This document shows positions 16,281 through 29,084 of a DNA stretch of 47,149 nt, in pieces; positions within the stretch are counted from its first letter, which is position 1; the number at the start of each line of letters is the position of its first letter. The translations under genes and the position numbers were made by a program. The notes under the pieces are model-generated. The model ran no database searches. It saw nothing but the letters and a program-made list of their open reading frames with translations, and was not told the origin of the DNA. The stretch is from Escherichia phage JeanPiccard. Location: sequence record MZ501080. One strand, written 5' to 3'.

Positions 16281-16329
16281 TTAGTGTAGAATGGCACAAA
16301 TGATCAAAACAAACGTGAGGCTTTGTGAT

Positions 16330-19300
16330 ATGGCTGAAGAGATTAAGATTTATGGTGCTAAAGGCGGTAGCCAGAAGCAGCATCAACCAGTGGAGCAGGA
16401 AGATAACCTTATTTCACTTAACAAGGTTAAGGTATTGCTTGCGGTTGCTGACGGAGAGGTGGATCCAAACTTCTCAATGAAGGATTTATACCTTGCTGAC
16501 GTTCCGGTGCAAAACCAGGATGGTAGCTACAACTACGAAGGTGTTCGCGCTGAGTTCCGTGCTGGCACGCAGTATCAGGACTATATCGCTGGCCTTGATG
16601 GTGCAAACTCAGAGATTCAGGCATCCAGAGAAATCACGAACGATACCCCGTATATCATCGCGGTTAACAATACTCAGCTATCAGCAATTCGAGTTAAGCT
16701 ATTTTGGCCTCGACTAGTTAAGCAAGAAAGTAACGGCGACCTGAACGGTACGACATGTGAGTATGCAATTGACCTATCTGTTAATGGTGGAGTATATCAG
16801 GAATACACTCGCGGAGTTGCTAACGGTAAGACAACTACAGGTTACGACCGCAGCATTCGTGTCAACCTTCCGGCAGAGTTTGATAGCGCACTGGTTCGAA
16901 TCCGTAAGATTACGCCAGACTCAACTAGTAGCACGCTGGTCAACGGAATGCAGATTACAACCTATCAGGAAGTAATCGACGCTAAATTCCGCTATCCGCT
17001 TACCGCCCTGGTTTATGTTGAGTTTGGCTCTGACTTGTTCCCTAACGGAATCCCAACAATTTCTATAAAGAAGCGCTGGAAGTTGATTCAGGTACCGACA
17101 AACTACGACCCGGAGACGAGAACTTACAGCGGGACATGGAATGGACTGTTCAAAATGGCATGGTCAAACAACCCAGCTTGGGTTCTTTATGACTTAGTGA
17201 CAAACCGCCGATATGGTCTTGACCAGCGAGAACTAGGTGTAGAGATTGATAAGTGGGGTCTTTACGAGGCTGCGCAATTCTGCGACCAGATGGTGCCGGA
17301 TGGTAAGGGTGGTTTAGAGCCTCGTTATCTTTGCGATATGGTTGTACAGAACAAGGTTGAGGCCTACACGCTAATTCGTGATATCTGTTCAATCTTCCGT
17401 GGTCTGACTTTCTATGATGGAGAAAAGATTGGCATCGTAGTTGATAAGCCTCGTAATCCATCATACATCTTCACGAATGATAACGTTGTAAACGGATTGT
17501 TCAGCCGCACCTTTGCCAGTGATAAGAGTCTTTACACCACTGCAAACGTTCAGTTTGATGATGTTGAGAACAACTATCAGCAGGATGTTGAGCCAGTTTT
17601 TGAACTCGAGGCTACTCGAAGATTTGGCTTTAACCCTGTTGACCTCACGGCTATTGGCTGTACTCGCAGAAGTGAGGCAAACAGGCGCGGCAGGTGGCTC
17701 CTAAAAACCAACCTGAGAAGCGAAACTATCAGCTTCACTACCGGGTTGGAAGGTATGATTCCGATGGTTGGCGAGGTAATTGCGGTCAATGACGCTGCAT
17801 GGTCGAGCAACTATCAGTTAAACCTTTCTGGTCGCATTGAATCAGTTCAGGGATTGCAGGTTTTCACCCCTTTTAAAGTTGACGCAGCGCCTGGTGACAG
17901 AATTCTTCTGAACAAGCCAGACGGAAGTCCAGAGGCAAGAACTATTGCCAGCGTTTCGGAGGATGGAAGAACAATCAACCTTAACACTGCTTTTAGTTTT
18001 GTAGCTCAACCTGACACTGTTTTCGCAATCGATAAGGATAATATCGCGCTTCAACAGTATGTTGTGACCGGGATTCAAAAAGCAGACTCTGATGGTTCGG
18101 ATTCATTTCAGTATACGATTACAGCAGTAGAGTATGACCCGAACAAGTATGACGAGATTGACTACGGGGTTAACATTGTTGACCGTCCAACTTCAATTGT
18201 GGAACCTGACAGATTGTCGCCGCCCGAGAACTTAACAGTATCAAGCTACAGTAAGGTTGTTCAGGGTTTGTCGGTTGAGACGATGGTTATCGGATGGGAT
18301 AAAGCGCCATACGCTAAAACATACAATGTTCAGTGGAGAAAAGAAAATGGCAACTGGATTAACGTACCCAGAACAGCAAGTACAGAGGTTGATATTGAGG
18401 GCATTTACGCAGGAATCTATGACGTTAGGGTTCGCAGCGTATCAGATACTGAAAACGTATCTGCCTGGTCTGACATTGTAACGGTATCGCTAACTGGCAA
18501 GATTGGTCGCCCATCTGCGCCTACGGTTATCACGGCTTCAACTGATGAGGTATTTGGAATTCGTGTTAAGTGGGGTTTCCCTGAAGGATCCGGTGACACT
18601 GCTTACACTGAACTTCAGCAGGTCGCTGATAATGGTGACGGCACTTACAATCCTGATAACGCAAGTTTGCTTACGTTACTGCCGTACCCAGCATATGAAT
18701 ACTGGCACACGCCAATTCAGCCAGGAAAGGTTATCTGGTATCGCGCTAGATTGATCGACAGAATAGGTAATACCTCTGATTGGTCTGACTTTGCTAGAGG
18801 TATGAGCACTGACGATGCCAACATCATCAACGATTACATCAAAGTTGATATTGAAGGCTCAGAAGGATTCAAATATCTCGAGCAGAATGCGATTCAAAAG
18901 AATCAGGACATTCAGAATCAAGCTGAGGCAATTATCGAGAACGCATTAGCTAATGACACTGATGTTCGTCGCATGACTAAGGAGAACGGAAAACGTAAGG
19001 CTGAATATGTTCAGGCAGTGAATCTCATAGCTGATGAAACTCAGGCGCGTGTGGAGGCTCTCACGGCCCTTAAAGCACAGATAGATGATGAGATTGTTGG
19101 TCAGATTACGACTATTGAAACGGCGCTGGCTACAGAGACTGAAGCTAGAGCTACGGCTGACACTCAGCTATCAGCAAGGATTGGTGATAACGAGGCGGCG
19201 CTAAACCAGAAGCTAGACGCTTTTGCTAACGCTGAGTCAACTGGAGTTCAGTATGGGATTAGTTTGGGCCTTAACTATAATGGTCAGACTTATTCATCCG

Positions 19301-19701
19301 GCATGAGCATGGAGCTAGTTGGTACTGGTGGTAATGTTCGTAGTCAGTTCATCTTTGACGCAAACAGATTCGCTATCAGTAACGGTATTGGTTCTGGTTC
19401 CGGTCAGTGGCAGCTGCCCTTTGTTGTCGAGAACGGAAACGTAATCATCCAGAGCGCAGTAATCGGTGACGGTTCAATCAGTAACGCTAAGATTGGTAAC
19501 TTTATTCAGTCTAACAACTACGTAGCAGGAACTACAGGTTGGAGGATTGATAAGTCTGGAAACGCCGAGATTCACGGAAGGCTGTACGCCAACAGTGGGG
19601 AGTTCGCTTTTAATGGAACAAACAACACAGTACAGATTAACGGTAACGGAATCACAGTAAACTTACCTGGAGGTGGAAGAGTTGTGGTAGGTACGTTCTA
19701 A
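16330..19701 (+). CDS. central tail fiber / host specificity protein (lambda J-like)
   Basis: clear similarity to lambda J by eye (PTNYDPETRTYSGTWNGLFKMAWSNNPAWVLYDLVTNRRYG versus lambda PSNYNPQTRQYSGIWDGTFKPAYSNNMAWCLWDMLTHPRYG); alternative ATG at 16291. Confidence 0.9.
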   Translation: MAEEIKIYGAKGGSQKQHQPVEQEDNLISLNKVKVLLAVADGEVDPNFSMKDLYLADVPVQNQDGSYNYEGVRAEFRAGTQYQDYIAGLDGANSEIQASREITNDTPYIIAVNNTQLSAIRVKLFWPRLVKQESNGDLNGTTCEYAIDLSVNGGVYQEYTRGVANGKTTTGYDRSIRVNLPAEFDSALVRIRKITPDSTSSTLVNGMQITTYQEVIDAKFRYPLTALVYVEFGSDLFPNGIPTISIKKRWKLIQVPTNYDPETRTYSGTWNGLFKMAWSNNPAWVLYDLVTNRRYGLDQRELGVEIDKWGLYEAAQFCDQMVPDGKGGLEPRYLCDMVVQNKVEAYTLIRDICSIFRGLTFYDGEKIGIVVDKPRNPSYIFTNDNVVNGLFSRTFASDKSLYTTANVQFDDVENNYQQDVEPVFELEATRRFGFNPVDLTAIGCTRRSEANRRGRWLLKTNLRSETISFTTGLEGMIPMVGEVIAVNDAAWSSNYQLNLSGRIESVQGLQVFTPFKVDAAPGDRILLNKPDGSPEARTIASVSEDGRTINLNTAFSFVAQPDTVFAIDKDNIALQQYVVTGIQKADSDGSDSFQYTITAVEYDPNKYDEIDYGVNIVDRPTSIVEPDRLSPPENLTVSSYSKVVQGLSVETMVIGWDKAPYAKTYNVQWRKENGNWINVPRTASTEVDIEGIYAGIYDVRVRSVSDTENVSAWSDIVTVSLTGKIGRPSAPTVITASTDEVFGIRVKWGFPEGSGDTAYTELQQVADNGDGTYNPDNASLLTLLPYPAYEYWHTPIQPGKVIWYRARLIDRIGNTSDWSDFARGMSTDDANIINDYIKVDIEGSEGFKYLEQNAIQKNQDIQNQAEAIIENALANDTDVRRMTKENGKRKAEYVQAVNLIADETQARVEALTALKAQIDDEIVGQITTIETALATETEARATADTQLSARIGDNEAALNQKLDAFANAESTGVQYGISLGLNYNGQTYSSGMSMELVGTGGNVRSQFIFDANRFAISNGIGSGSGQWQLPFVVENGNVIIQSAVIGDGSISNAKIGNFIQSNNYVAGTTGWRIDKSGNAEIHGRLYANSGEFAFNGTNNTVQINGNGITVNLPGGGRVVVGTF

Positions 19702-19729: not shown

Positions 19730-20662
19730 TTAATACATGTCTGGAAGGTAAGGCAATGGAGTGGATATTGTTACGTCAGGTCTGTTTCCAATCTCATATC
19801 TTACAATCCTTGATCCAGTTCCCGATCGAACATAACCATTACTCATTACGATTCCTTTGTTTCTTAACTCCTTGTAAGCTGGAATTGCCCTGGTGTTAAA
19901 TCCGCATCTTAATATTGGGAAGTAGGATTCGCCAATATACTGATTGCTACCTGATAGGTTTATGAATCCAGAAACAACCAACGGCCTTGTAACGGTTGAT
20001 AAAGTGCAAACACCATTAGAGTTAAATATGTTCAATCCGGGTCCTGGTATTGGCGCAACCATCTGAAAAATAATCAAGTCCATAGTGACACTTCCAGGAG
20101 TGTCTCCAGTATCTTCAGTGTTTATGTTTGTGCATATCAGTTGATTGCTCCCGTTGTATTCAACCGAGACGCCGGAGTTATTCCACTTTCCAAATGGTAT
20201 CCCATAAATTGGCAGCGTGTATGTGTTGGTGAAAGATATCCTCTGAGCAAACTTGCACACCAACAACCTGTCAGTGGTGGTTATCGAAGTAAAATCTGTG
20301 CTATTGGCAACATAAATACCCTGACCAGTAGATGCTCTTAGTACCTCAACAACAGTACCAGAAAATTGAGTTATACGGTCAGAATATCCATTCTCATAGC
20401 CAATCGATATTGTTCCGCTTGATGCTGTTGATGAGAATCCATTTATGTAGTAAACCTCAACGCCCCTATCAAGTTCGAATGAGTAGGCACCATTATTAGG
20501 GATTAGGAACCTTGACGCTCCTTCATTACCCTGGATTGAAAAAGTTTTGCTAAATCCACCACTAGAAACGTTGAAGTTGCCAGCAAAGTTCAAGGCACGC
20601 ATCCCTGCGGTTATTGTCATTGGCTTTCTTCCGTCATTGAGGTCTATATAAATACCTTGAGC
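19730..20662 (-). CDS. hypothetical beta-rich protein co-transcribed with lipoprotein (possible receptor-binding or exclusion partner)
   Basis: 310 aa from ATG 20662 (AAGGAG RBS, TAATG overlap with upstream gene); Gly/Ser/Thr/Asn-rich. Confidence 0.45.
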   Translation of the reverse strand, partial: AQGIYIDLNDGRKPMTITAGMRALNFAGNFNVSSGGFSKTFSIQGNEGASRFLIPNNGAYSFELDRGVEVYYINGFSSTASSGTISIGYENGYSDRITQFSGTVVEVLRASTGQGIYVANSTDFTSITTTDRLLVCKFAQRISFTNTYTLPIYGIPFGKWNNSGVSVEYNGSNQLICTNINTEDTGDTPGSVTMDLIIFQMVAPIPGPGLNIFNSNGVCTLSTVTRPLVVSGFINLSGSNQYIGESYFPILRCGFNTRAIPAYKELRNKGIVMSNGYVRSGTGSRIVRYEIGNRPDVTISTPLPYLPDMY

Positions 20663-20664
20663 CA

Positions 20665-20895
20665 TTAATTCCACTCCTTAGAACCATAATCACGAACGGA
20701 CCCACTGGAGCCTTTAATTCCATCGTAGCGAATATCAATTTCACCAGCCGGAACAATTACGCCGCTTTTCCATTTAGCTACGCACACTCCGTTTGAGGAT
20801 GTAGCGCACCAACCATCTGGGCGAGGACCAGATGAGCAGCCTACCATCATGATTGCTGCTGCGGAGATGATTACTGATTTGATGAAGTTATTCAT
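20665..20895 (-). CDS. lipoprotein, Cor-like superinfection exclusion candidate
   Basis: signal peptide [19 protein letters not shown] followed by Cys (lipobox MVGC); about 76 aa; adjacent to tail genes. Confidence 0.55.
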
Positions 20896-20960: not shown

Positions 20961-20978
20961 TTTAGCAATTCGTGCTAT
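20961..20978 (-). promoter_or_regulatory. dyad motif (minus orientation, copy d) overlapping methyltransferase stop codon
   Basis: TTTAGCAATTCGTGCTAT is the reverse complement of ATAGCACGAATTGCTAAA. Confidence 0.4.
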
Positions 20979-21651
20979 TTGCAATGAAAACCGCCCTTGC
21001 GAATCCTCTCGGTGTAAGACTGCGGACTACCTTCGTTTTCTTACTCTTACCGCCTAGCTTCTTGTATTGGTCTGAGAATCCGTCATTAACAGGCACGGGA
21101 ATAGCATCAGGCCATTTAAACCCATTGCCAGACCAAATACATGTCTTCTTAGGATATGCGTCGCGAGGCTTTATTAGGTCGCTAAAAAACGGGTGTAAAT
21201 CATCTTCCGGCAAATAGCCTCCGTATTCGTAAGGGTGGAAAGTGTTATCAGGCTTTCGCCAAAGTGATGAAAGTACGCTTATCGGGTTCTCAATCATGTA
21301 TGGCACTTGGTACTTATTAGCCAGGTTAAAGGCAACTTTACACGCTTCAGCAGCTTCAATTTGGAAATTGGGGTTAGCAAGGCGCTTGCGCTCAAAGTGT
21401 CTTGACCCGCTCACCGCTAAATCCGTACAGGGCGGGAATGCCAAAATGAAATCAGGCTTCACATTAAAATCGAAGTCAGCATCTATCCATGCGTTAACAT
21501 AGGTGATGTTGTGATGCTCAACCTTTGCATTTAAGTCACCGTAGCTCCCATGGTCAGAATCATCAAAGTTGAAACAGTAGCAAGTGTGACCAGCTTCAGC
21601 CCAATCTTTCACCGCAAGACCAGAGCCATCAAATAAAGACCAGATAACCAT
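20962..21651 (-). CDS. DNA C5-cytosine methyltransferase (short Dcm-like)
   Basis: motif I-like LFDGSG, PC motif FPPCTDLAVSG, ENV-like MIENPIS. Confidence 0.65.
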   Translation of the reverse strand: MVIWSLFDGSGLAVKDWAEAGHTCYCFNFDDSDHGSYGDLNAKVEHHNITYVNAWIDADFDFNVKPDFILAFPPCTDLAVSGSRHFERKRLANPNFQIEAAEACKVAFNLANKYQVPYMIENPISVLSSLWRKPDNTFHPYEYGGYLPEDDLHPFFSDLIKPRDAYPKKTCIWSGNGFKWPDAIPVPVNDGFSDQYKKLGGKSKKTKVVRSLTPRGFARAVFIANSTNC

Positions 21652-23545: not shown

Positions 23546-24010
23546 ATGAACAAAGATTGCTGGCAGACTCCTTTAGAGTTATTTAAACCAATAGATGAAA
23601 AATACAACTTCGAGGTTGACGTATGTGCCAGTCCAGAGAACGCGCTTTGTGAATACTTCTGGACCGTAGATGATGACTGCTTGCAACAGGATTGGGGTGA
23701 TGATGGCGGTTTCGTTTGGTGTAATCCACCATATAGCAATCCATTACCATTTGTTGAAAAGTGCCAGCAATACGGATATGCAGTCATGCTATTGAATCAG
23801 GATACGTCAACAAAATGGGCTAAGATAGTCTTTGAAAAAGCATCAAAGGTTATACTTTTATCAGACAGGGTTAGATTTATAAATCCAGTAACACTTGAGG
23901 TTGGCAAGTCAAACCCAAAATGCCAGATGATTGTTGTTTTCGACAAGAGCAGTAATACTGGTGTTGATATACGCTGGTGCTCAATAAAAGAAATTCATAA
24001 GCACATATAA
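23546..24010 (+). CDS. dam: phage-type DNA N6-adenine methyltransferase (Dam-like)
   Basis: WQTP N-terminus and catalytic NPPY motif (WCNPPYS); about 154 aa, typical of the small phage Dam family. Confidence 0.8.
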   Translation: MNKDCWQTPLELFKPIDEKYNFEVDVCASPENALCEYFWTVDDDCLQQDWGDDGGFVWCNPPYSNPLPFVEKCQQYGYAVMLLNQDTSTKWAKIVFEKASKVILLSDRVRFINPVTLEVGKSNPKCQMIVVFDKSSNTGVDIRWCSIKEIHKHI

Positions 24011-24392: not shown

Positions 24393-25043
24393 ATGCAAAT
24401 TTCAGAATCATTCAAGTCCATTTTAAGTGCGCTTCACAGAGCTAAATCGATGTTTGCTAAAGCTGAGAGATCGCAGCAAAACTCACATCTTAAGAACAGA
24501 TACGCTAAATTAGAAGATGTTTTAGCGGCAGTTGAGCCCGGGCTTGATGAGTGCGGATTAGTGATGTTCCAAAGCGTAATTGACGATGAATCAACTAACC
24601 GATTAAAGGTTGAGACAAAAATCTTCCACGCGGAATCTGGAGAGTGGGTTAGCTTCTTAATGATTGTTCCAATCAGCAAGCAAGACGCTCAAGGTTACGG
24701 ATCCGCACTTACATATGCTCGACGATATGGCATTACATCGGCTTTAGGGCTTAGCCAGGCTGATGATGATGGCAATCTCGCAGCTAAAGGCGTCAAGGAC
24801 TTTAAACGAGAGCTTGAGAAGTGCAATACTCTTGATGAGCTTCGTAATGTATGGAAGGAGGCTAAGCAGTCACTTGATGCAGCAGGATGGAAGGTTTTCG
24901 AACCTCACATTATAGAGCGAAAAGCTGAAATCGAAGCAAACGCAGCAACTGGATTCAACCCAGCCACACCCAAGAAAGTTGCAGAAAAAAGTAGTGATAA
25001 AGAAAAGATTGAAGTAGAATCTCAACAAATCGACACATTCTAA
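24393..25043 (+). CDS. single-strand annealing protein (Erf-like)
   Basis: GSALTYARRYG segment as I recall from ERF-family recombinases; located between nuclease and SSB genes. Confidence 0.6.
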   Translation: MQISESFKSILSALHRAKSMFAKAERSQQNSHLKNRYAKLEDVLAAVEPGLDECGLVMFQSVIDDESTNRLKVETKIFHAESGEWVSFLMIVPISKQDAQGYGSALTYARRYGITSALGLSQADDDGNLAAKGVKDFKRELEKCNTLDELRNVWKEAKQSLDAAGWKVFEPHIIERKAEIEANAATGFNPATPKKVAEKSSDKEKIEVESQQIDTF

Positions 25044-25083: not shown

Positions 25084-25512
25084 ATGCACGTAATTACTGG
25101 TCAGATTCGCCGCGCTCCGTTCACTAAAGAAGGTCAAAACGCCAATGGTACATGGAAAATGTTTGCTGTTGATTTGAGTGAGAGATACAAGGATAAAGAT
25201 GGGCAGACTCAGTATAGTAACTATCGCGCAGTCTTCTTCGCGAAAGAGTCTATGCTGGATTGGTATAACGAGGCATTTCAAGAAGGTAAAGTTGTTAGCG
25301 TTAGCGCAGATACTCTTTCTGTTGATGTTCGTGATAAAGATGGTAAGACTTACGTAACAATCAACATGAACAACCCTAGACTTGAGTTTAGTCAGCGAGG
25401 TGAAAGTGGTGTTCAGCAGCAACAGCCAAGACAACAGCAGCAACAACCGCAAGCACAACAGCAGAAGCTTCAGCCGCAGCAGCAGCAATTTGATGACTCC
25501 ATTCCATTCTAA
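25084..25512 (+). CDS. single-stranded DNA-binding protein
   Basis: Gln/Pro-rich linker and acidic C-terminal tail DDSIPF (E. coli SSB ends DDDIPF). Confidence 0.75.
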   Translation: MHVITGQIRRAPFTKEGQNANGTWKMFAVDLSERYKDKDGQTQYSNYRAVFFAKESMLDWYNEAFQEGKVVSVSADTLSVDVRDKDGKTYVTINMNNPRLEFSQRGESGVQQQQPRQQQQQPQAQQQKLQPQQQQFDDSIPF

Positions 25513-25520
25513 TAAAAGAT

Positions 25521-25544
25521 AAAGCCCCTTTCGGGGCTTTTTTA
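25521..25544. terminator. bidirectional terminator (convergent SSB operon and tail fiber gene)
   Basis: hairpin AAAGCCCCtttcGGGGCTTT flanked by A-run and T-run. Confidence 0.65.
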
Positions 25545-28073
25545 TTAACCTATCTTAGTATAAGTCCATTGGTATGTTGCAGCGCCCTGTGCAGTTATCC
25601 CGACAGTTCTTCCGCTTACATCCATTGAAGTGAAAACGCCAGTTTTTGTAATTGTTATTGATGATGTTGTACCATCAAAAAGTACATCAGCAATTACACT
25701 ATAGTTAGCCCCGGCCCCAGTAACCCAGGTCGAAACCTTGTATAAACCTGCGTTGTTTGGCAACTCAAAAAGACCAGTTGAAACATTAGCCTGAACAGCC
25801 ATAGCGCCCTTTCCGGTGTATACACCGTCAGTTTTAAGTCCTAATGATGAATACGTTTGCTTATAACCGCCAACGATCATGCCACCCATTGGTTCAGTAA
25901 ACCAGTTCACATTACCCTGACTAACAACCGATATAGCAGGAGAGCCACCTTTAGCTGACTGGAACCTACCGCTCAAAACGTCAATTCTAGATGTTGAATC
26001 CTGGGCGTAGATAGTTACAGGATACCCACCAGAACCAGTGTAAACCAAGCCGTTATCATTAATATCATCTTCAGATGAGTCAATGATTACATGGGAAGTT
26101 CCAGACGCCTTGATGTACGAAACAACACCACCGGAACCAGCGCCTGTTGTTCTAACTTCATTCTTCCATGATGTTAGGCCTGAAATCCTGCCATTTGAGT
26201 TATTAAACCTAATCAGGCAACAATCCTGAGAACCGTTCGTGTCAATAATGTTACCTTCGACGTCCATTCCCAGTATGTTTACGCTATGACTGTTAATAAA
26301 GTTAATTCCAGCACCACCGTAAGAACCAGATGTTGATGATATATTGCTGGCATCCATTGCGCAGTTAATCATCGTCACGCTCATCACTGAACCAAATTCA
26401 TAAGGTGAAATGCAATCTGATGCGTAACAAGTCTCAAGCAATATTGTCGTCCCAGTCGCCTTGATGAATCCCGTCCTGCAATTCCTGGCCCAAACATTCT
26501 GTAACTTAGTTTGGTATGTTCCAGTGGTATCCGTGTAACAGCCCCACGCTCCATGTACCGTGCAATCTTTGATGCATGAATTTTCCAGACCAGTTGCAGA
26601 ACCAACATTAGAAACGAAGTTAAATGCTATCTTTTGATCATTCCCTGGTGCTGAGGTAGGCGTAGTGCCTGGGTTATAAAAAATGTAAAGTCCCTCAATA
26701 AACACTTGATACATTCTTATGTTTTGCGCATCACCCTGAACCAGGGCAAACAGGTTAATGTTCCCATCAACTGAGATAAATGCTTGCGCCCTGTTAATTT
26801 GGTCTGTCCCCTCCCCAATAATTCTTGTGCTGTTCCCAATCCTTACCGTCCTGTTAATAAACATAAAACCTTTTGGTATGTATACAGTTTTACCGGTATT
26901 AACTGCCGCCTGAAGCGCAACTGAGTCAAGTGACTCATTAAGGTTTGATGCAAATGGATAAACAGCCCGTGCAGCCTCAATTGTAGAGAATTTAGATGAC
27001 AGCGGAACTAAAGTGCCATTGTTTGTAGCACCAAAATCCATGACGTTAACAAAGTCACCAAGTTTACTTTCCTTGCTCCTTTCTACAGATGAGGTCAATG
27101 TCGATTTGTAATTCATCGAACTGAATCGTGATTGAGCCTCAGTCGTTGAATAAACATCAAGCAGACCCCTTACCCTTAAGGCGCTGGATCCACCAGTAGC
27201 TCCATCTCCACCAGGAACGCTTAGAAGTTCCCTTACATAAAAATTCCTAGAACCAGTAGCTCCAGTAATGGTAATTTCCGCAACCCTAAAAACGGCGTTT
27301 GAGGTTGTAGAAGGAGAAATTCTTACTACGTTACTTCCATTAACACCACGCGTCGCAAGAACATCAATACAAATAGTAGTGTTTGTCGCCGGGAACATTG
27401 AACTTAAGGCTGACGGAATGTTAACCATGTTTGCAATTTTGCACTGGTAGCTACCACCTGAATAAAATTGCATTGTCTGCCAGTCAAGGGATGTAAGCAG
27501 TGGTGTTGTAGTACTTCCTATGCCGTGTTCTGCAAAGTAAGCCACTGCGGCCGTATTCCCAGCTGCATTTATTGCGTTAACGGTTCTGTTGTATGAGTTC
27601 AGTGCATTATTGCTAGCACCAACGGCAGTTGATGCACTTTCTGCGGCAGAAATTTGACTAGCAAGTGCCTCTGCAGCTCCGGTAGTTGACTGAGTTGCTA
27701 ACTGTTCAAATCGAGGCCAATCGAAGGTGTCTTGACCAATAAATTGCAGCAATCCTTCGATGGATGTCTCCTTTGACTGATAGTAACGCAGAGTCTCAGC
27801 AACATTCTGAGCTAAACCCGGAGCGGTAATCCCATCGTGCGCAAGAATCGCGTAACCAGTTCCGGCAGGAACAGTTTCAGAGTTAGGGTTATAAACATTA
27901 ATCTTAGTGTCGCTGACAATTTCCGAGATGGCGTAGATCTTTATCGGGTTAGTTTTGAAAATGATAGTAGCACCTACGCGAATCAGTGTAAGCGGTGCTT
28001 TCCATGTTGTACCAACACCAGTTACCTCTCCATTCGCGGCTAGTGACGCTGTTCCTAAGTCATAAATTGCCAT
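25545..28073 (-). CDS. tail fiber / tailspike with beta-helix (pectate-lyase-like) domain
   Basis: 842 aa from ATG 28073; conserved fiber N-terminus MAIYDLGTASLAANGEVTG; central VMDFGATNNG plus repetitive Gly/Asn/Ser/Thr beta-helix-like region. Confidence 0.75.
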   Translation of the reverse strand: MAIYDLGTASLAANGEVTGVGTTWKAPLTLIRVGATIIFKTNPIKIYAISEIVSDTKINVYNPNSETVPAGTGYAILAHDGITAPGLAQNVAETLRYYQSKETSIEGLLQFIGQDTFDWPRFEQLATQSTTGAAEALASQISAAESASTAVGASNNALNSYNRTVNAINAAGNTAAVAYFAEHGIGSTTTPLLTSLDWQTMQFYSGGSYQCKIANMVNIPSALSSMFPATNTTICIDVLATRGVNGSNVVRISPSTTSNAVFRVAEITITGATGSRNFYVRELLSVPGGDGATGGSSALRVRGLLDVYSTTEAQSRFSSMNYKSTLTSSVERSKESKLGDFVNVMDFGATNNGTLVPLSSKFSTIEAARAVYPFASNLNESLDSVALQAAVNTGKTVYIPKGFMFINRTVRIGNSTRIIGEGTDQINRAQAFISVDGNINLFALVQGDAQNIRMYQVFIEGLYIFYNPGTTPTSAPGNDQKIAFNFVSNVGSATGLENSCIKDCTVHGAWGCYTDTTGTYQTKLQNVWARNCRTGFIKATGTTILLETCYASDCISPYEFGSVMSVTMINCAMDASNISSTSGSYGGAGINFINSHSVNILGMDVEGNIIDTNGSQDCCLIRFNNSNGRISGLTSWKNEVRTTGAGSGGVVSYIKASGTSHVIIDSSEDDINDNGLVYTGSGGYPVTIYAQDSTSRIDVLSGRFQSAKGGSPAISVVSQGNVNWFTEPMGGMIVGGYKQTYSSLGLKTDGVYTGKGAMAVQANVSTGLFELPNNAGLYKVSTWVTGAGANYSVIADVLFDGTTSSITITKTGVFTSMDVSGRTVGITAQGAATYQWTYTKIG

Positions 28074-28097
28074 TGTGTAAAGTCTCCATTTGTAAAA

Positions 28098-28115
28098 TAG
28101 CACGATTTGCTAAAG
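28098..28115 (+). promoter_or_regulatory. dyad motif TAGCACgattTGCTAAAG (family copy g)
   Basis: located between tail fiber start and primase terminator, plus orientation. Confidence 0.3.
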
Positions 28116-28138
28116 TTGATTGTAGCATCTTTAGGGCA

Positions 28139-28162
28139 TAAAAAAACCTCCCGAAGGAGGTT
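28139..28162 (-). terminator. rho-independent terminator for primase operon
   Basis: on minus strand: hairpin AACCTCCttcgGGAGGTT followed by T7. Confidence 0.6.
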
Positions 28163-29084
28163 AGTCTAGTAATTCGCTTGCTTTATATATTCTCTTCCTT
28201 ATGCCTGACTTGAAAAAATTATCATCATTTGGGATTACAACATCAAGATTGCGATCATCAGCAACAGCGAGTAAATCAAAAGCGTGGCGAGTACAAGCGA
28301 TGCGTAACTTGTAGTTTCTAAGCGCGTAAGCAACCATTTCCATGTTGTAACTGGAGTGGCAAACAAGCACGCAGCGGTTGCCAGTAGCAATATTGACGCG
28401 AACACCATCAATCCAATTATCGACCAGATAAGCGTACTCATCATCCTTAAAGGAACCAATAACAGAAACAGATTGGCGAGTATAATCTTTTGCAGCATAA
28501 CTAACATTTCCCTCTTCATTGATAAACATTACATTGCACATTTCTTCTGATATACCTTCACTATAAGCCATAAAGCACGGTACTGCGTGGATTAGTTCGC
28601 CTGACTTTGCCCTGCCAACATCAAAACCGAACTCACTATAAATACCCTCGTATGTACTTAGCGGCGTTGATTCTACTCTTTCCGTCCTTTCCATTATCTC
28701 TAGGCATCTTTCGTGGTCAATCTGAGCGCCCATCTTGTAGAGCTGGGTTCTTGATGCTTGCTTATTTGCCTTATTAACAACTTCTACAGGGATAAGGTTT
28801 AGCCACTCACCGAGAACGTCGATACATTCACTGAATGACTGCCCTCTCATTTTTTGAACCCAGACAATTCCATCTCCCGAGCCGCACTGGTTGCAGATAA
28901 TTCCACCGTCACCATCTACACTAACCTTGTTTGTCCACCTTGCCCTATCGTGACCTCCACAATAAATACATGGCTGGTGCTTCTTGGTCTGGAAGAACTT
29001 TGGGTCAGCGCCGCAGATATTGATAAGCGCCTTATCCCACAGGCCGCGCATTCTGGGTAAAACCTCTTTCTTATCGTGGTGCAT
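28161..29084 (-). CDS. putative DNA primase (zinc-ribbon type)
   Basis: CxxC..CxxC zinc ribbon CIYCGGHDRARW...CNQCGSGDG resembling primase-helicase Zn-binding domains; adjacent to helicase. Confidence 0.6.
   Translation of the reverse strand: MHHDKKEVLPRMRGLWDKALINICGADPKFFQTKKHQPCIYCGGHDRARWTNKVSVDGDGGIICNQCGSGDGIVWVQKMRGQSFSECIDVLGEWLNLIPVEVVNKANKQASRTQLYKMGAQIDHERCLEIMERTERVESTPLSTYEGIYSEFGFDVGRAKSGELIHAVPCFMAYSEGISEEMCNVMFINEEGNVSYAAKDYTRQSVSVIGSFKDDEYAYLVDNWIDGVRVNIATGNRCVLVCHSSYNMEMVAYALRNYKLRIACTRHAFDLLAVADDRNLDVVIPNDDNFFKSGIRKRIYKASELLD

What the first reader, a model, noticed from the sequence alone, without database searches (positions are those of the whole stretch)
25545..28073. 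Large minus-strand tail fiber with beta-helix / pectate-lyase-like central domain (possible depolymerase)
The 842-aa protein combines a conserved fiber N-terminal anchor (MAIYDLGTASLAANGEVTG) with a long Gly/Asn/Ser/Thr-rich repetitive region and a VMDFGATNNG segment reminiscent of right-handed beta-helix tailspikes that degrade surface polysaccharide. This would be a second receptor-recognition device in addition to the J-like central fiber and a likely host-range determinant.
Basis: inference. Interest (0 to 1): 0.5.

Follow-up and report, generated by a model that had tools for sequence, protein, structure and literature searches.

The report
Phage side fibre with sugar-cutting tailspike head
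This gene encodes the already annotated lateral tail fibre of coliphage JeanPiccard, whose outer two-thirds is a tailspike-type beta-helix that most likely binds and cuts the O2-type O-antigen; it is an ordinary member of a well-known kind.

Summary
The ORF is real: 25545..28073 on the minus strand, 842 aa, starting at an ATG preceded by a GGAG ribosome-binding site. It is 100% identical to the GenBank "lateral tail fiber protein" of Escherichia phage JeanPiccard (Bas02, Drexlerviridae).

It lies in the conserved slot between ssb and primase. It is a three-part mosaic:
- a universal N-terminal anchor (aa 1-~100);
- a helical and beta-sandwich connector (to about aa 310-322);
- a C-terminal module (aa 323-842).

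"Pectate lyase" holds only at the level of fold. The Pfam hit is below its threshold, and Asp574 and Glu606 are invariant across the family, which suggests a hydrolase.

The probable target is O-antigen rather than capsule. Pas et al. 2023 already placed this exact protein in an O2-serogroup receptor-binding subtype. Independently, phage SU57 carries a roughly 93% identical head, was isolated on ECOR57 (O2:H1), and forms haloed plaques there.

Enzymatic activity, trimer formation and target specificity have not been tested experimentally. Verdict: already known, low interest.

The parts
25545..28073 (-). Complete lateral tail fibre / tailspike gene (842 aa plus stop)
   Evidence: ORF list. 100% identical to 'lateral tail fiber protein [Veterinaerplatzvirus Jeanpiccard]'. 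Same slot as SU57_00050 'tail spike protein'.
27774..28073 (-). Universal N-terminal anchor (aa 1-~100), a small beta-rich domain
   Evidence: This is the only part of the N-terminal third that is shared at DNA level with SU57 and T145P1. It is homologous to the N-termini of Drexlerviridae and Webervirus fibres and of lambda-like/phi80 Stf. AF2 models strands 2-78 with pLDDT about 72-86.
27108..27773 (-). Connector (aa ~101-322): helical stretch 88-170 (probable trimeric coiled coil), beta-sandwich ~176-301, and a linker containing LDVYS (aa 305-309)
   Evidence: AF2 secondary structure. At DNA level it is shared with vB_EcoS_FP (27135-28814, 89.6%) but not with SU57 or T145P1. It is analogous to the helix bundle and connection domain of Depo32 (PMC10581125).
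25854..27107 (-). Right-handed parallel beta-helix, the putative O-antigen-binding and hydrolysing domain (aa 323-~740). It includes the cap motif VMDFGATNNG (aa 344-353) and the invariant Asp574 and Glu606
25548..25853 (-). C-terminal beta-sandwich tip domain (aa ~741-842)
   Evidence: AF2 models strands 740-840 with pLDDT about 80-90. It is co-inherited with the beta-helix in all full-module relatives.
25521..25540 (.). Bidirectional intrinsic terminator between the convergent ssb and fibre genes
   Evidence: Terminator scan finds an 8-bp stem on both strands. SU57 has an annotated terminator at the equivalent position.
28081..28162 (-). Upstream control region: primase terminator (28162-28145), an extended -10-like TGcTACAAT (about 28128-28120), and the GGAG RBS (28087-28084)
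   Evidence: Sequence read and terminator scan. The promoter assignment is my inference from the consensus only.

Best explanation
The gene encodes the lateral tail fibre of the T1-like siphovirus JeanPiccard, and that fibre is built as a tailspike.

**Architecture.** The N-terminal anchor (aa 1-~100) fixes it to the tail. A helical and beta-sandwich connector follows. The distal module (aa 323-842) is a right-handed beta-helix with a beta-sandwich tip.

**Proposed mechanism.**
- As a presumed trimer, the distal module binds the O-antigen of smooth E. coli, most probably serogroup O2.
- It cleaves that glycan as an endoglycosidase, with Asp574 and Glu606 as candidate catalytic carboxylates.
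- This lets the virion work through the O-antigen layer, so that the central J-like fibre and its receptor-binding locus can reach the terminal receptor LptD.
- On rough hosts such as K-12 the fibre is dispensable.

**Evolution.** The head is a horizontally exchanged cassette. Related heads occur in Kagunavirus-like and ~50-kb siphovirus tailspikes, in P22-like tailspikes, and in 751-aa E. coli prophage tail proteins.

**Shown here:** the ORF, its identity, synteny, mosaic structure, the predicted fold, the residue conservation and the homology links.

**Inferred:** trimer formation, enzymatic activity, the catalytic residues, O2 specificity and the order of events during infection.
For: **Identity and synteny.** The protein is 100% identical to the JeanPiccard lateral tail fibre. 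It lies between Erf/SSB and primase, as in SU57.

**Anchor.** It matches PHROG tail-fibre families and the N-terminus of Depo32/DpK2 (E about 1e-32). That region is the 'N-terminal anchor domain and helical bundle' of Depo32 (PMC10581125).

**Candidate active site.** Asp574 and Glu606 are invariant in 43 relatives at 24-54% identity. Both are conserved in the 611R6 tailspike. They lie 32 residues apart at the ends of consecutive long strands (563-574 and 597-606), which fits adjacent rungs.

**Cassette exchange.**
- The module boundary at aa ~306-333 is seen in BLASTP and in DNA.
- The same head sits directly downstream of J-like genes in 43.6-kb and 49.8-kb siphovirus contigs.
- It is fused to a P22 head-binding domain (PF09008) in P0095, and occurs in 751-aa prophage tail proteins.

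**O2 link.**
- Pas et al. 2023, Table S1, list JeanPiccard_RBP (QXV80800.1) in the O2 subtype with 611R6 and an SCU-116 prophage. I confirmed 37% identity over 648 aligned positions to the 611R6 tailspike.
- One prophage homologue is labelled 'Escherichia coli O2' by its source.
- SU57's head is 88% identical over aa 285-842, and about 93% from aa 331 onward by my reading of that alignment.
- SU57 was isolated on ECOR57 and forms haloed plaques there (PMC7718038). ECOR57 is listed as O2:H1 (PMC7432712).
- SU57 reached EOP above 0.001 only on ECOR57 (O2), ECOR61 (O2) and rough ECOR63. O2 strains are enriched among its spot-positive ECOR strains (Fisher p = 0.006, or 0.024 without ECOR57).

**Hydrolase rather than lyase.** The O2 repeat is described as three L-rhamnose residues plus amino sugars, with no uronic acid listed (PMC5293828).

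**Terminal receptor.** LptD, from PMC8594841.
Against: - No experiment on this protein exists.
- The O2 assignment by Pas et al. is in their lowest confidence tier (in silico, by horizontal transfer). It rests on relatives only 37-53% identical, and specificity can change at that distance.
- SU57 also gave weak spot lysis on non-O2 ECOR strains (O1, O7, O25, O75, O86, O173). It missed two O2 strains (ECOR49 and ECOR59).
- SU57 plated on two Salmonella strains (SARA15 and SARB21).
- Serogroup O2 is genetically heterogeneous (PMC5293828).
- The SU57 authors did not attribute the halos to the spike and say halos are general among T1-like phages.
- The catalytic pair is inferred from conservation only. 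I had no model coordinates to measure distances. No solved relative aligns by sequence beyond the N-terminal cap of the helix.
- The Pfam hit is below its threshold.
- The monomer AF2 model of the full protein is poor in aa 80-189 and 288-338.
Confidence: 0.72

Rival explanations
1. A non-enzymatic adhesin. The beta-helix head only binds a surface glycan reversibly, as the T5 pb1 L-shaped fibre does, and does not cleave it.
For: - Some Drexlerviridae (Webervirus) O-antigen-targeting RBPs lack depolymerase domains and were proposed to bind without catalysis, by analogy with T5 pb1 (PMC13463945).
- No activity data exist for this protein.
- The Pfam enzymatic family hit is sub-threshold.
Against: - An Asp and a Glu are invariant across relatives down to 24% identity, in the middle rungs of the helix.
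- The nearest phage neighbours by fold are active depolymerases or endoglycosidases.
- SU57, with a roughly 93% identical head, makes halos.
Confidence: 0.13
2. A capsule or exopolysaccharide depolymerase. The head targets a K-antigen, colanic acid or another exopolysaccharide rather than O-antigen, possibly as a lyase.
For: - The N-terminal anchor is homologous to that of the Klebsiella K2 capsule depolymerases Depo32 and DpK2.
- Halos are classically associated with capsule depolymerases.
- Many O2 ExPEC strains carry K1 (Table 4 in PMC5293828).
Against: - The anchor and the head are independent cassettes, so anchor homology says nothing about the substrate.
- Head homologues sit in P22-like tailspikes. 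In 611R6 an OafA-type O-acetylase gene follows the tailspike directly, a serotype-conversion arrangement typical of O-antigen phages.
- Pas et al. group the head with hosts of one O-serogroup.
- There is no sequence similarity to known K1, K5 or other capsule enzymes beyond the helix cap.
Confidence: 0.1
3. An O-antigen tailspike with a specificity other than O2, either another serogroup or a broader rhamnose-containing epitope.
For: - JeanPiccard itself was isolated on rough K-12, and no smooth host is stated for it in the text passages I read.
- The O2-labelled relatives are only 37-53% identical.
- SU57 plated on two Salmonella strains and gave weak lysis on O1, O7, O25, O75 and O86 strains.
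- O2 antisera cross-react with O1, O50, O53, O74 and O117.
- The closest head alleles come from phages of unknown host type: T145P1 (C-module DNA 93% identical) and 2725-N35.
Against: The closest head with a known smooth host, SU57 at about 93% identity, was isolated on an O2:H1 strain. Among ECOR strains it plaques only on O2 or rough strains.
Confidence: 0.25

Closest known systems
Tail spike protein SU57_00050 of Escherichia phage vB_EcoD_SU57 (MT511058; Drexlerviridae, Braunvirinae)
   Same: - It occupies the same genomic slot between ssb and primase.
- The anchor is the same (70% identity over aa 1-138).
- The beta-helix head is nearly identical (88% over aa 285-842, about 93% from aa 331).
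- SU57 forms haloed plaques on ECOR57, which is O2:H1.
   Different: The connector (aa ~140-330) is unrelated, and SU57's protein is shorter at 777 aa. SU57 was isolated on a smooth O2 host, whereas JeanPiccard was isolated on rough K-12.
Depo32 (phage GH-K3; PDB 7VYV/7VZ3) and DpK2 (phage RAD2; 7LZJ), lateral tailspike depolymerases of Klebsiella Webervirus phages (Drexlerviridae)
   Same: - The N-terminal anchor and helical region are homologous (aa 1-174, E about 1e-32).
- The overall plan is the same: anchor, helix bundle, connection domain, beta-helix, then C-terminal beta-sandwich.
   Different: - The enzymatic heads show no sequence homology beyond the fold.
- Depo32 degrades K2 capsule and has an extra CBM and C-terminal helix bundle.
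- Its proposed catalytic residues lie in an inter-subunit cleft.
- The protein studied here most likely targets E. coli O-antigen.
O2-serogroup RBP subtype of Pas et al. 2023 (Lederbergvirus 611R6 tailspike URC09205.1; Uetakevirus prophage RBP of strain SCU-116)
   Same: The receptor-binding head is homologous: 37% identity over 648 aligned positions to 611R6, with Asp574 and Glu606 conserved. This exact protein is listed in that subtype.
   Different: - The anchors differ (P22-type head-binding domain or Uetakevirus anchor) and so does the virion type (podovirus).
- In those phages the spike is the main or only RBP. Here it is an accessory lateral fibre beside an LptD-targeting central fibre.
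Lateral tail fibre of Drexlerviridae phage ETEP102 (Nouzillyvirus), modelled in PMC11267873
   Same: The published AF2 model has the same four parts: adaptor, flexible coil, depolymerase domain and tip domain. It was compared with CBA120 TSP2 and proposed to act in a two-step infection ending at an LptD-type tail tip. The first ~100 aa are shared at DNA level (89%).
   Different: The head cassette is different, and the proposed specificity is O149.
O-antigen endoglycosidase tailspikes of P22, Sf6, HK620 and CBA120 TSP2
   Same: - Right-handed beta-helix with a C-terminal beta-sandwich.
- Foldseek hits to Sf6 (E = 1.4e-6) and CBA120 TSP2.
- These enzymes use a pair of acidic catalytic residues (my background knowledge), which matches the invariant Asp/Glu found here.
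   Different: - There is no sequence homology beyond the helix cap.
- The anchors differ.
- In those podoviruses and myoviruses the spike is an essential primary RBP.

Membership tests
Drexlerviridae lateral tail fibre (T1/Rtp-type) | Conserved N-terminal anchor sequence shared across the family | tested here: met
   phrog_24092 E = 1.8e-117. tblastn matches 968 phage records, most aligning only to the N-terminal ~125-130 aa. Depo32/DpK2 N-terminus E about 1e-32.
Drexlerviridae lateral tail fibre (T1/Rtp-type) | Gene located on the opposite strand, between the recombination/ssb genes and primase/helicase | tested here: met
   Erf 24393-25043 and SSB 25084-25512 on the plus strand, the fibre at 25545-28073 on the minus strand, and primase 28161-29084 on the minus strand. 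SU57, FP and 2725-N35 have the same layout. It is described in BASEL S1C Fig.
Drexlerviridae lateral tail fibre (T1/Rtp-type) | Physical presence as a lateral fibre on the virion | not testable with these tools
   This needs virion proteomics or cryo-EM.
Beta-helix tailspike / polysaccharide depolymerase (pectin lyase-like fold) | Right-handed parallel beta-helix fold | tested here: met
Beta-helix tailspike / polysaccharide depolymerase (pectin lyase-like fold) | Homotrimer | not testable with these tools
   Only monomer prediction was available. A trimer is expected by analogy with Depo32.
Beta-helix tailspike / polysaccharide depolymerase (pectin lyase-like fold) | Catalytic residues in the helix groove, and glycan-cleaving activity | tested here: inconclusive
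   Asp574 and Glu606 are invariant in 43 relatives and lie on consecutive strands. I had no coordinates, no alignment to a solved active site and no assay.
Pfam PF12708 Pect-lyase_RHGA_epim (pectate lyase-like) | Score at or above the curated gathering threshold | tested here: not met
   18.4 bits against a cut-off of 27, E = 0.0021, aa 341-554. Only the cap motif is clearly homologous. Some relatives do carry precomputed PF12708 hits.
O2-serogroup RBP subtype (Pas et al. 2023) | At least 30% aa identity over the RBD to subtype members | tested here: met
   37% over 648 aligned positions to the 611R6 tailspike. 53% over aa 323-842 to the 751-aa prophage tail proteins. The protein is listed in their Table S1.
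O2-serogroup RBP subtype (Pas et al. 2023) | Phage or prophage host of serogroup O2 | tested here: inconclusive
   JeanPiccard was isolated on rough K-12. Indirect support: SU57, with a head about 93% identical, has the host ECOR57, which is O2:H1. One prophage homologue is labelled E. coli O2. O2 strains are enriched among SU57-sensitive ECOR strains, p = 0.006.

The most novel reading that the evidence does not exclude
The head (aa 323-842) may be a bona fide O2/O50-specific endoglycosidase, probably an endorhamnosidase using Asp574 and Glu606. I found no solved relative by sequence beyond the helix cap. It would be carried by a phage that can be propagated on K-12, and only 23 family representatives score E <= 1e-30 among 1.84 billion cluster representatives. 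JeanPiccard would then offer a convenient pair of conditions for testing how an accessory enzymatic side fibre cooperates with an LptD-directed central fibre: rough K-12, where the fibre is dispensable, and smooth O2 ExPEC/APEC strains, where it would be required.
Probability: 0.45. Interest if true: 0.3.

Novelty: already known. Interest (0 to 1): 0.15.

Why it matters
Side fibres of this kind decide which smooth, O-antigen-bearing E. coli strains a T1-like phage can reach. That matters for phage therapy, for host-range engineering, and for enzyme tools against O2 ExPEC and APEC strains.

For this scan the main result is negative. The gene is already annotated, its architecture is typical of Drexlerviridae, and its head has already been assigned in silico to an O2 subtype in the literature.

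This analysis adds three things:
- a confident fold model of the head;
- a candidate catalytic Asp/Glu pair;
- an independent host-based line of support for O2, through SU57 and ECOR57.

Tried and rejected
- **Active-site mapping by sequence.** I searched the PDB with a profile of 43 relatives. Only the N-terminal cap of the helix aligned, so no catalytic residues could be transferred.
- **Internal sequence repeats.** Self-BLASTP found none, so "repetitive" is structural only.
- **Serotyping prophage carriers.** A distant blastn search of 5,426 complete E. coli genomes found 9 weak matches at about 65% identity. I had no means to serotype those genomes. Cluster-member names yielded only one "E. 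coli O2" label.
- **Hosts of the closest alleles.** I looked for the host O-type of phage T145P1. The source paper is not in the library.
- **SU57 follow-up paper.** The ECOR57 population-dynamics paper contains no receptor data.
- **Conserved recombination motifs.** I compared the window gene at DNA level with Kagunavirus-like and ~50-kb siphovirus loci and with 611R6. Similarity was only about 67-70% and lay inside the head; no junction motif was conserved. The sole downstream resemblance was a terminator hairpin similar to that of L007.
- **GTG start at 28103.** Rejected in favour of the ATG at 28073, on the basis of the RBS and the database protein length.
- **Intramolecular chaperone.** Some relatives with other heads carry an S74 peptidase domain (PF13884). 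Pfam finds none in this protein.
Full report
**1. The observation**

The window holds a minus-strand ORF running 25545..28103 from a GTG. An in-frame ATG at 28073 gives 842 aa beginning MAIYDLGTASLAANGEVTG. The ATG is the real start. A GGAG lies 9 nt upstream of it, and the 842-aa product is 100% identical, end to end, to a database protein of 842 aa (P0001).

- VMDFGATNNG is at aa 344-353.
- Gly+Asn+Ser+Thr make up 38.6% of the protein, against 23.4% on average in 11 other large proteins of the window.
- Self-BLASTP finds no internal sequence repeat. "Repetitive" is therefore true only of the structure.

**2. What the window is**

P0001 is named [quoted passage not shown] and comes from a 47,149-bp contig, the same length as the window. 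The first 25 kb is about 86% identical to Braunvirinae phages BEK2/3, FP and AugustePiccard.

The gene neighbourhood is as follows:
- a J-like central fibre at 16291-19701 (phrog_31);
- Erf at 24393-25043;
- SSB at 25084-25512;
- the fibre on the opposite strand;
- primase at 28161-29084.

SU57, FP and 2725-N35 have the same layout. The BASEL paper describes it as the variable lateral-tail-fibre locus of Drexlerviridae (PMC8594841). That paper also reports LptD as the terminal receptor of JeanPiccard (Bas02). It states that O-antigen binding by Drexlerviridae lateral fibres "has never been directly demonstrated". Among their Drexlerviridae, only Bas07 plaques on K-12 with restored O16 antigen.

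The gene is flanked by two terminators: a bidirectional one at 25521-25540 and the primase terminator at 28162-28145. A TGcTACAAT between the primase terminator and the RBS resembles an extended -10 element. That promoter reading is my inference only.

**3. Anatomy: a three-part mosaic**

BLASTP against 120 relatives shows two blocks:
- aa 1 to ~320/333 is shared with many Drexlerviridae fibres that carry unrelated C-termini;
- aa 323-842 is shared with proteins that carry unrelated N-termini.

At DNA level the picture is finer:
- window 25545-27092/27158 (the head) is 83-89% identical to SU57, T145P1 and 2725-N35 over blocks that also include upstream flank; the head alone is 93% identical to T145P1 by megablast;
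- window 27135-28073 (anchor plus connector) is 89.6% identical to vB_EcoS_FP;
- SU57 and T145P1 share only 27774-28073 (aa 1-100) of the N-terminal third.

The DNA junction falls at the LDVYS motif (aa 305-309).

The full-length AF2 model (pLDDT 72.5) gives:
- a small beta-rich anchor (strands 2-78);
- helices 88-170 at low confidence, as expected for a trimeric coiled coil modelled as a monomer;
- a beta-sandwich at about 176-301;
- a disordered linker at 288-338;
- a long run of short strands at 340-~720;
- a terminal beta-sandwich at 740-840.

**4. Fold of the head**

Modelled alone with 30 aligned sequences, aa 323-842 reaches pLDDT 86.4 and pTM 0.74.

- 32.6 to the AlgE4 A-module;
- 30.5 to the Acinetobacter phage AS12 tailspike;
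- 29.8 to RbmB;
- 29.7 and 29.4 to CBA120 TSP2;
- 27.6 to the phi297 tailspike;
- 26.3 to Depo32;
- 22.7 to the HK620 tailspike.

All of these are right-handed parallel beta-helices. Foldseek with the full model returns the phi297, LKA1, Fri1, K2-2, CBA120 TSP2 and Sf6 tailspikes. Its low TM-scores reflect the multi-domain model.

By sequence, only the cap of the helix is recognisable:
- 4RU4 and 4RU5 at E = 1.2e-12 over aa 336-457;
- PF12708 at 18.4 bits, below its gathering score of 27;
- a family profile against the PDB aligns the cap only.

The beta-helix reading is therefore supported. "Pectate lyase" is a fold label, not a family membership.

**5. Candidate active site**

A full scan of 1.84 billion cluster representatives finds 644 relatives at E <= 1e-3 but only 23 at E <= 1e-30. 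The family is small.

In an alignment of 43 members that are 24-54% identical to the query, the invariant positions are Pro472, Tyr520, Gly541, Thr542, Asp574, Glu606 and Gly680 (numbering is module position plus 322). Asp574 (in NCAMD) and Glu606 (in GMDVEGN) end two consecutive long strands 32 residues apart. That fits adjacent rungs facing the same side. Both are conserved in the 611R6 tailspike.

By my background knowledge, a pair of carboxylates is what P22-type endoglycosidase tailspikes use. I had no model coordinates, so the geometry is untested.

**6. What the head targets**

Related heads occur in several settings:
- immediately downstream of J-like genes in a 43.6-kb and a 49.8-kb siphovirus contig; this is the arrangement that Humolli et al. 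2025 describe for the O-antigen-dependent Kagunavirus and Skatevirus tailspikes;
- fused to a P22 head-binding domain (P0095, PF09008);
- in 751-aa E. coli prophage tail proteins, one of which is labelled "Escherichia coli O2".

Pas et al. 2023 (PMC10408124) clustered E. coli RBPs at 30% or more identity over the RBD and assigned serogroups from host data. Their Table S1 lists [quoted passage not shown]. It is grouped with Lederbergvirus 611R6 and a Uetakevirus prophage of strain SCU-116. I confirmed 37% identity over 648 aligned positions to the 611R6 tailspike. In 611R6 an OafA-type O-acetylase gene follows the tailspike.

An independent line not used by Pas et al. comes from phage SU57:
- Its spike is 88% identical over aa 285-842, and about 93% from aa 331 onward.
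- SU57 was isolated on ECOR57 and makes haloed plaques there.
- ECOR57 is listed as O2:H1 (PMC7432712).
- In the original host-range table, SU57 reached EOP above 0.001 only on ECOR57 (O2:H1), ECOR61 (O2:H4) and ECOR63 (rough). It gave spot lysis on ECOR50 and ECOR62, both O2:H4.
- Four of six O2 strains were spot-positive, against 8 of 66 others. Fisher p = 0.006, or 0.024 without the isolation host.

There are caveats:
- SU57 also gave weak lysis on O1, O7, O25, O75, O86 and O173 strains.
- It missed ECOR49 and ECOR59, and it plated on two Salmonella strains.
- O2 is genetically heterogeneous.
- The serotypes of ECOR19-23 were not visible in the excerpts I read.

The O2 repeat is described as three L-rhamnose residues plus amino sugars, with no uronic acid listed. 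That argues for a hydrolase rather than a beta-eliminating lyase.

**7. Most likely mechanism**

A trimeric side fibre is anchored by aa 1-~100. Its beta-helix head binds and probably hydrolyses O2-type O-antigen. This clears or traverses the O-antigen layer so that the central fibre can engage LptD. On rough K-12 the fibre is dispensable, which explains isolation of the phage on K-12.

- Shown here: identity, synteny, mosaicism, the predicted fold, residue conservation and the homology links.
- Inferred: trimer formation, catalysis, the residues involved, the specificity and the order of events.

I put 0.72 on an enzymatically active, glycan-specific lateral tailspike, and about 0.55-0.6 on O2 specifically.

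Rivals:
- binding only (0.13);
- capsule or EPS depolymerase (0.10);
- a different O-specificity (0.25; this overlaps the main model).

**8. Comparison with what is known**

The closest relatives are:
- SU57_00050, with the same slot and nearly the same head;
- Depo32 and DpK2 of Klebsiella Webervirus phages, with the same anchor and overall plan but a different head and a capsule substrate;
- the ETEP102 fibre, already modelled as adaptor, coil, depolymerase and tip;
- the O2 subtype of Pas et al.

The protein meets the tests I could run for a Drexlerviridae lateral fibre and for a beta-helix tailspike fold. It fails the Pfam PF12708 threshold. Catalysis and trimer formation are untested.

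**9. Novelty and verdict**

The gene is annotated. Its family architecture is published. This exact protein already appears in the literature as a predicted O2-specific RBP.

New here are:
- the confident head model;
- the Asp574/Glu606 proposal;
- the SU57/ECOR57 support for O2.

Interest is low (0.15). The most novel reading still open is that this is a first tractable O2-specific endoglycosidase on a phage that grows on K-12 (probability about 0.45; interest 0.3 if true).

Noticed in passing
window 28081-28162 (minus strand): A strong intrinsic terminator (28162-28145) directly follows the primase gene. After it come a TGcTACAAT extended -10-like element and the GGAG RBS of the fibre gene. 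The SU57 authors doubted that their homologous gene is transcribed, because of the same terminator. A dedicated (late?) promoter may resolve that doubt.
   Followed up: partly
window 25521-25540; L007 5996-6023: The bidirectional terminator hairpin after the fibre stop (AAAGCCCCGAAAGGGGCTTT) resembles the hairpin after the homologous tailspike of a Kagunavirus-like contig (GGCCCCAAACGGGGCC). This recalls the conserved downstream 'motif three' that Pas et al. propose as a recombination hotspot.
   Followed up: partly
window 23546-24010 (+): A 154-aa ORF contains an NPPY motif (WCNPPYS), typical of N6-adenine DNA methyltransferases. A second methyltransferase (phrog_757) lies at 20962-21651 on the minus strand.
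   Followed up: no
window 19730-20674 (-): A 314-aa membrane protein (phrog_1265, category 'moron') is encoded convergently just downstream of the J-like gene. [quoted passage not shown]
   Followed up: no
window 25084-25512 (+): The SSB has an unusually glutamine-rich tail (QQQQPRQQQQQPQAQQQKLQPQQQQ) before the canonical acidic DDSIPF tip.
   Followed up: no
L005 (ON470589.1, phage 611R6) 1-4000 and 41542-42666: The 611R6 'phage genome' record carries bacterial sucrose-utilisation genes at one end and tRNA-Arg and yfdC at the other, so it looks like an excised prophage region. An OafA/YrhL-type O-acetylase gene directly follows its tailspike, which suggests serotype conversion of the same O-antigen.
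   Followed up: no
Literature: PMC4356574, Table 2 versus S1 Table: The text and Table 2 give 11 ECOR strains lysed by SU57. S1 Table has 12 ECOR rows with an SU57 entry. The O2-enrichment statistic I computed uses the 12 rows.
   Followed up: partly
L006 4001-5986 and L007 4001-5995: In two other siphovirus lineages (49.8-kb and 43.6-kb contigs) the same head family sits directly after the J-like gene, where it presumably acts as the main tailspike. In JeanPiccard it is an accessory lateral fibre at a distant locus. The same cassette therefore serves in two different positions of a siphovirus tail.
   Followed up: partly
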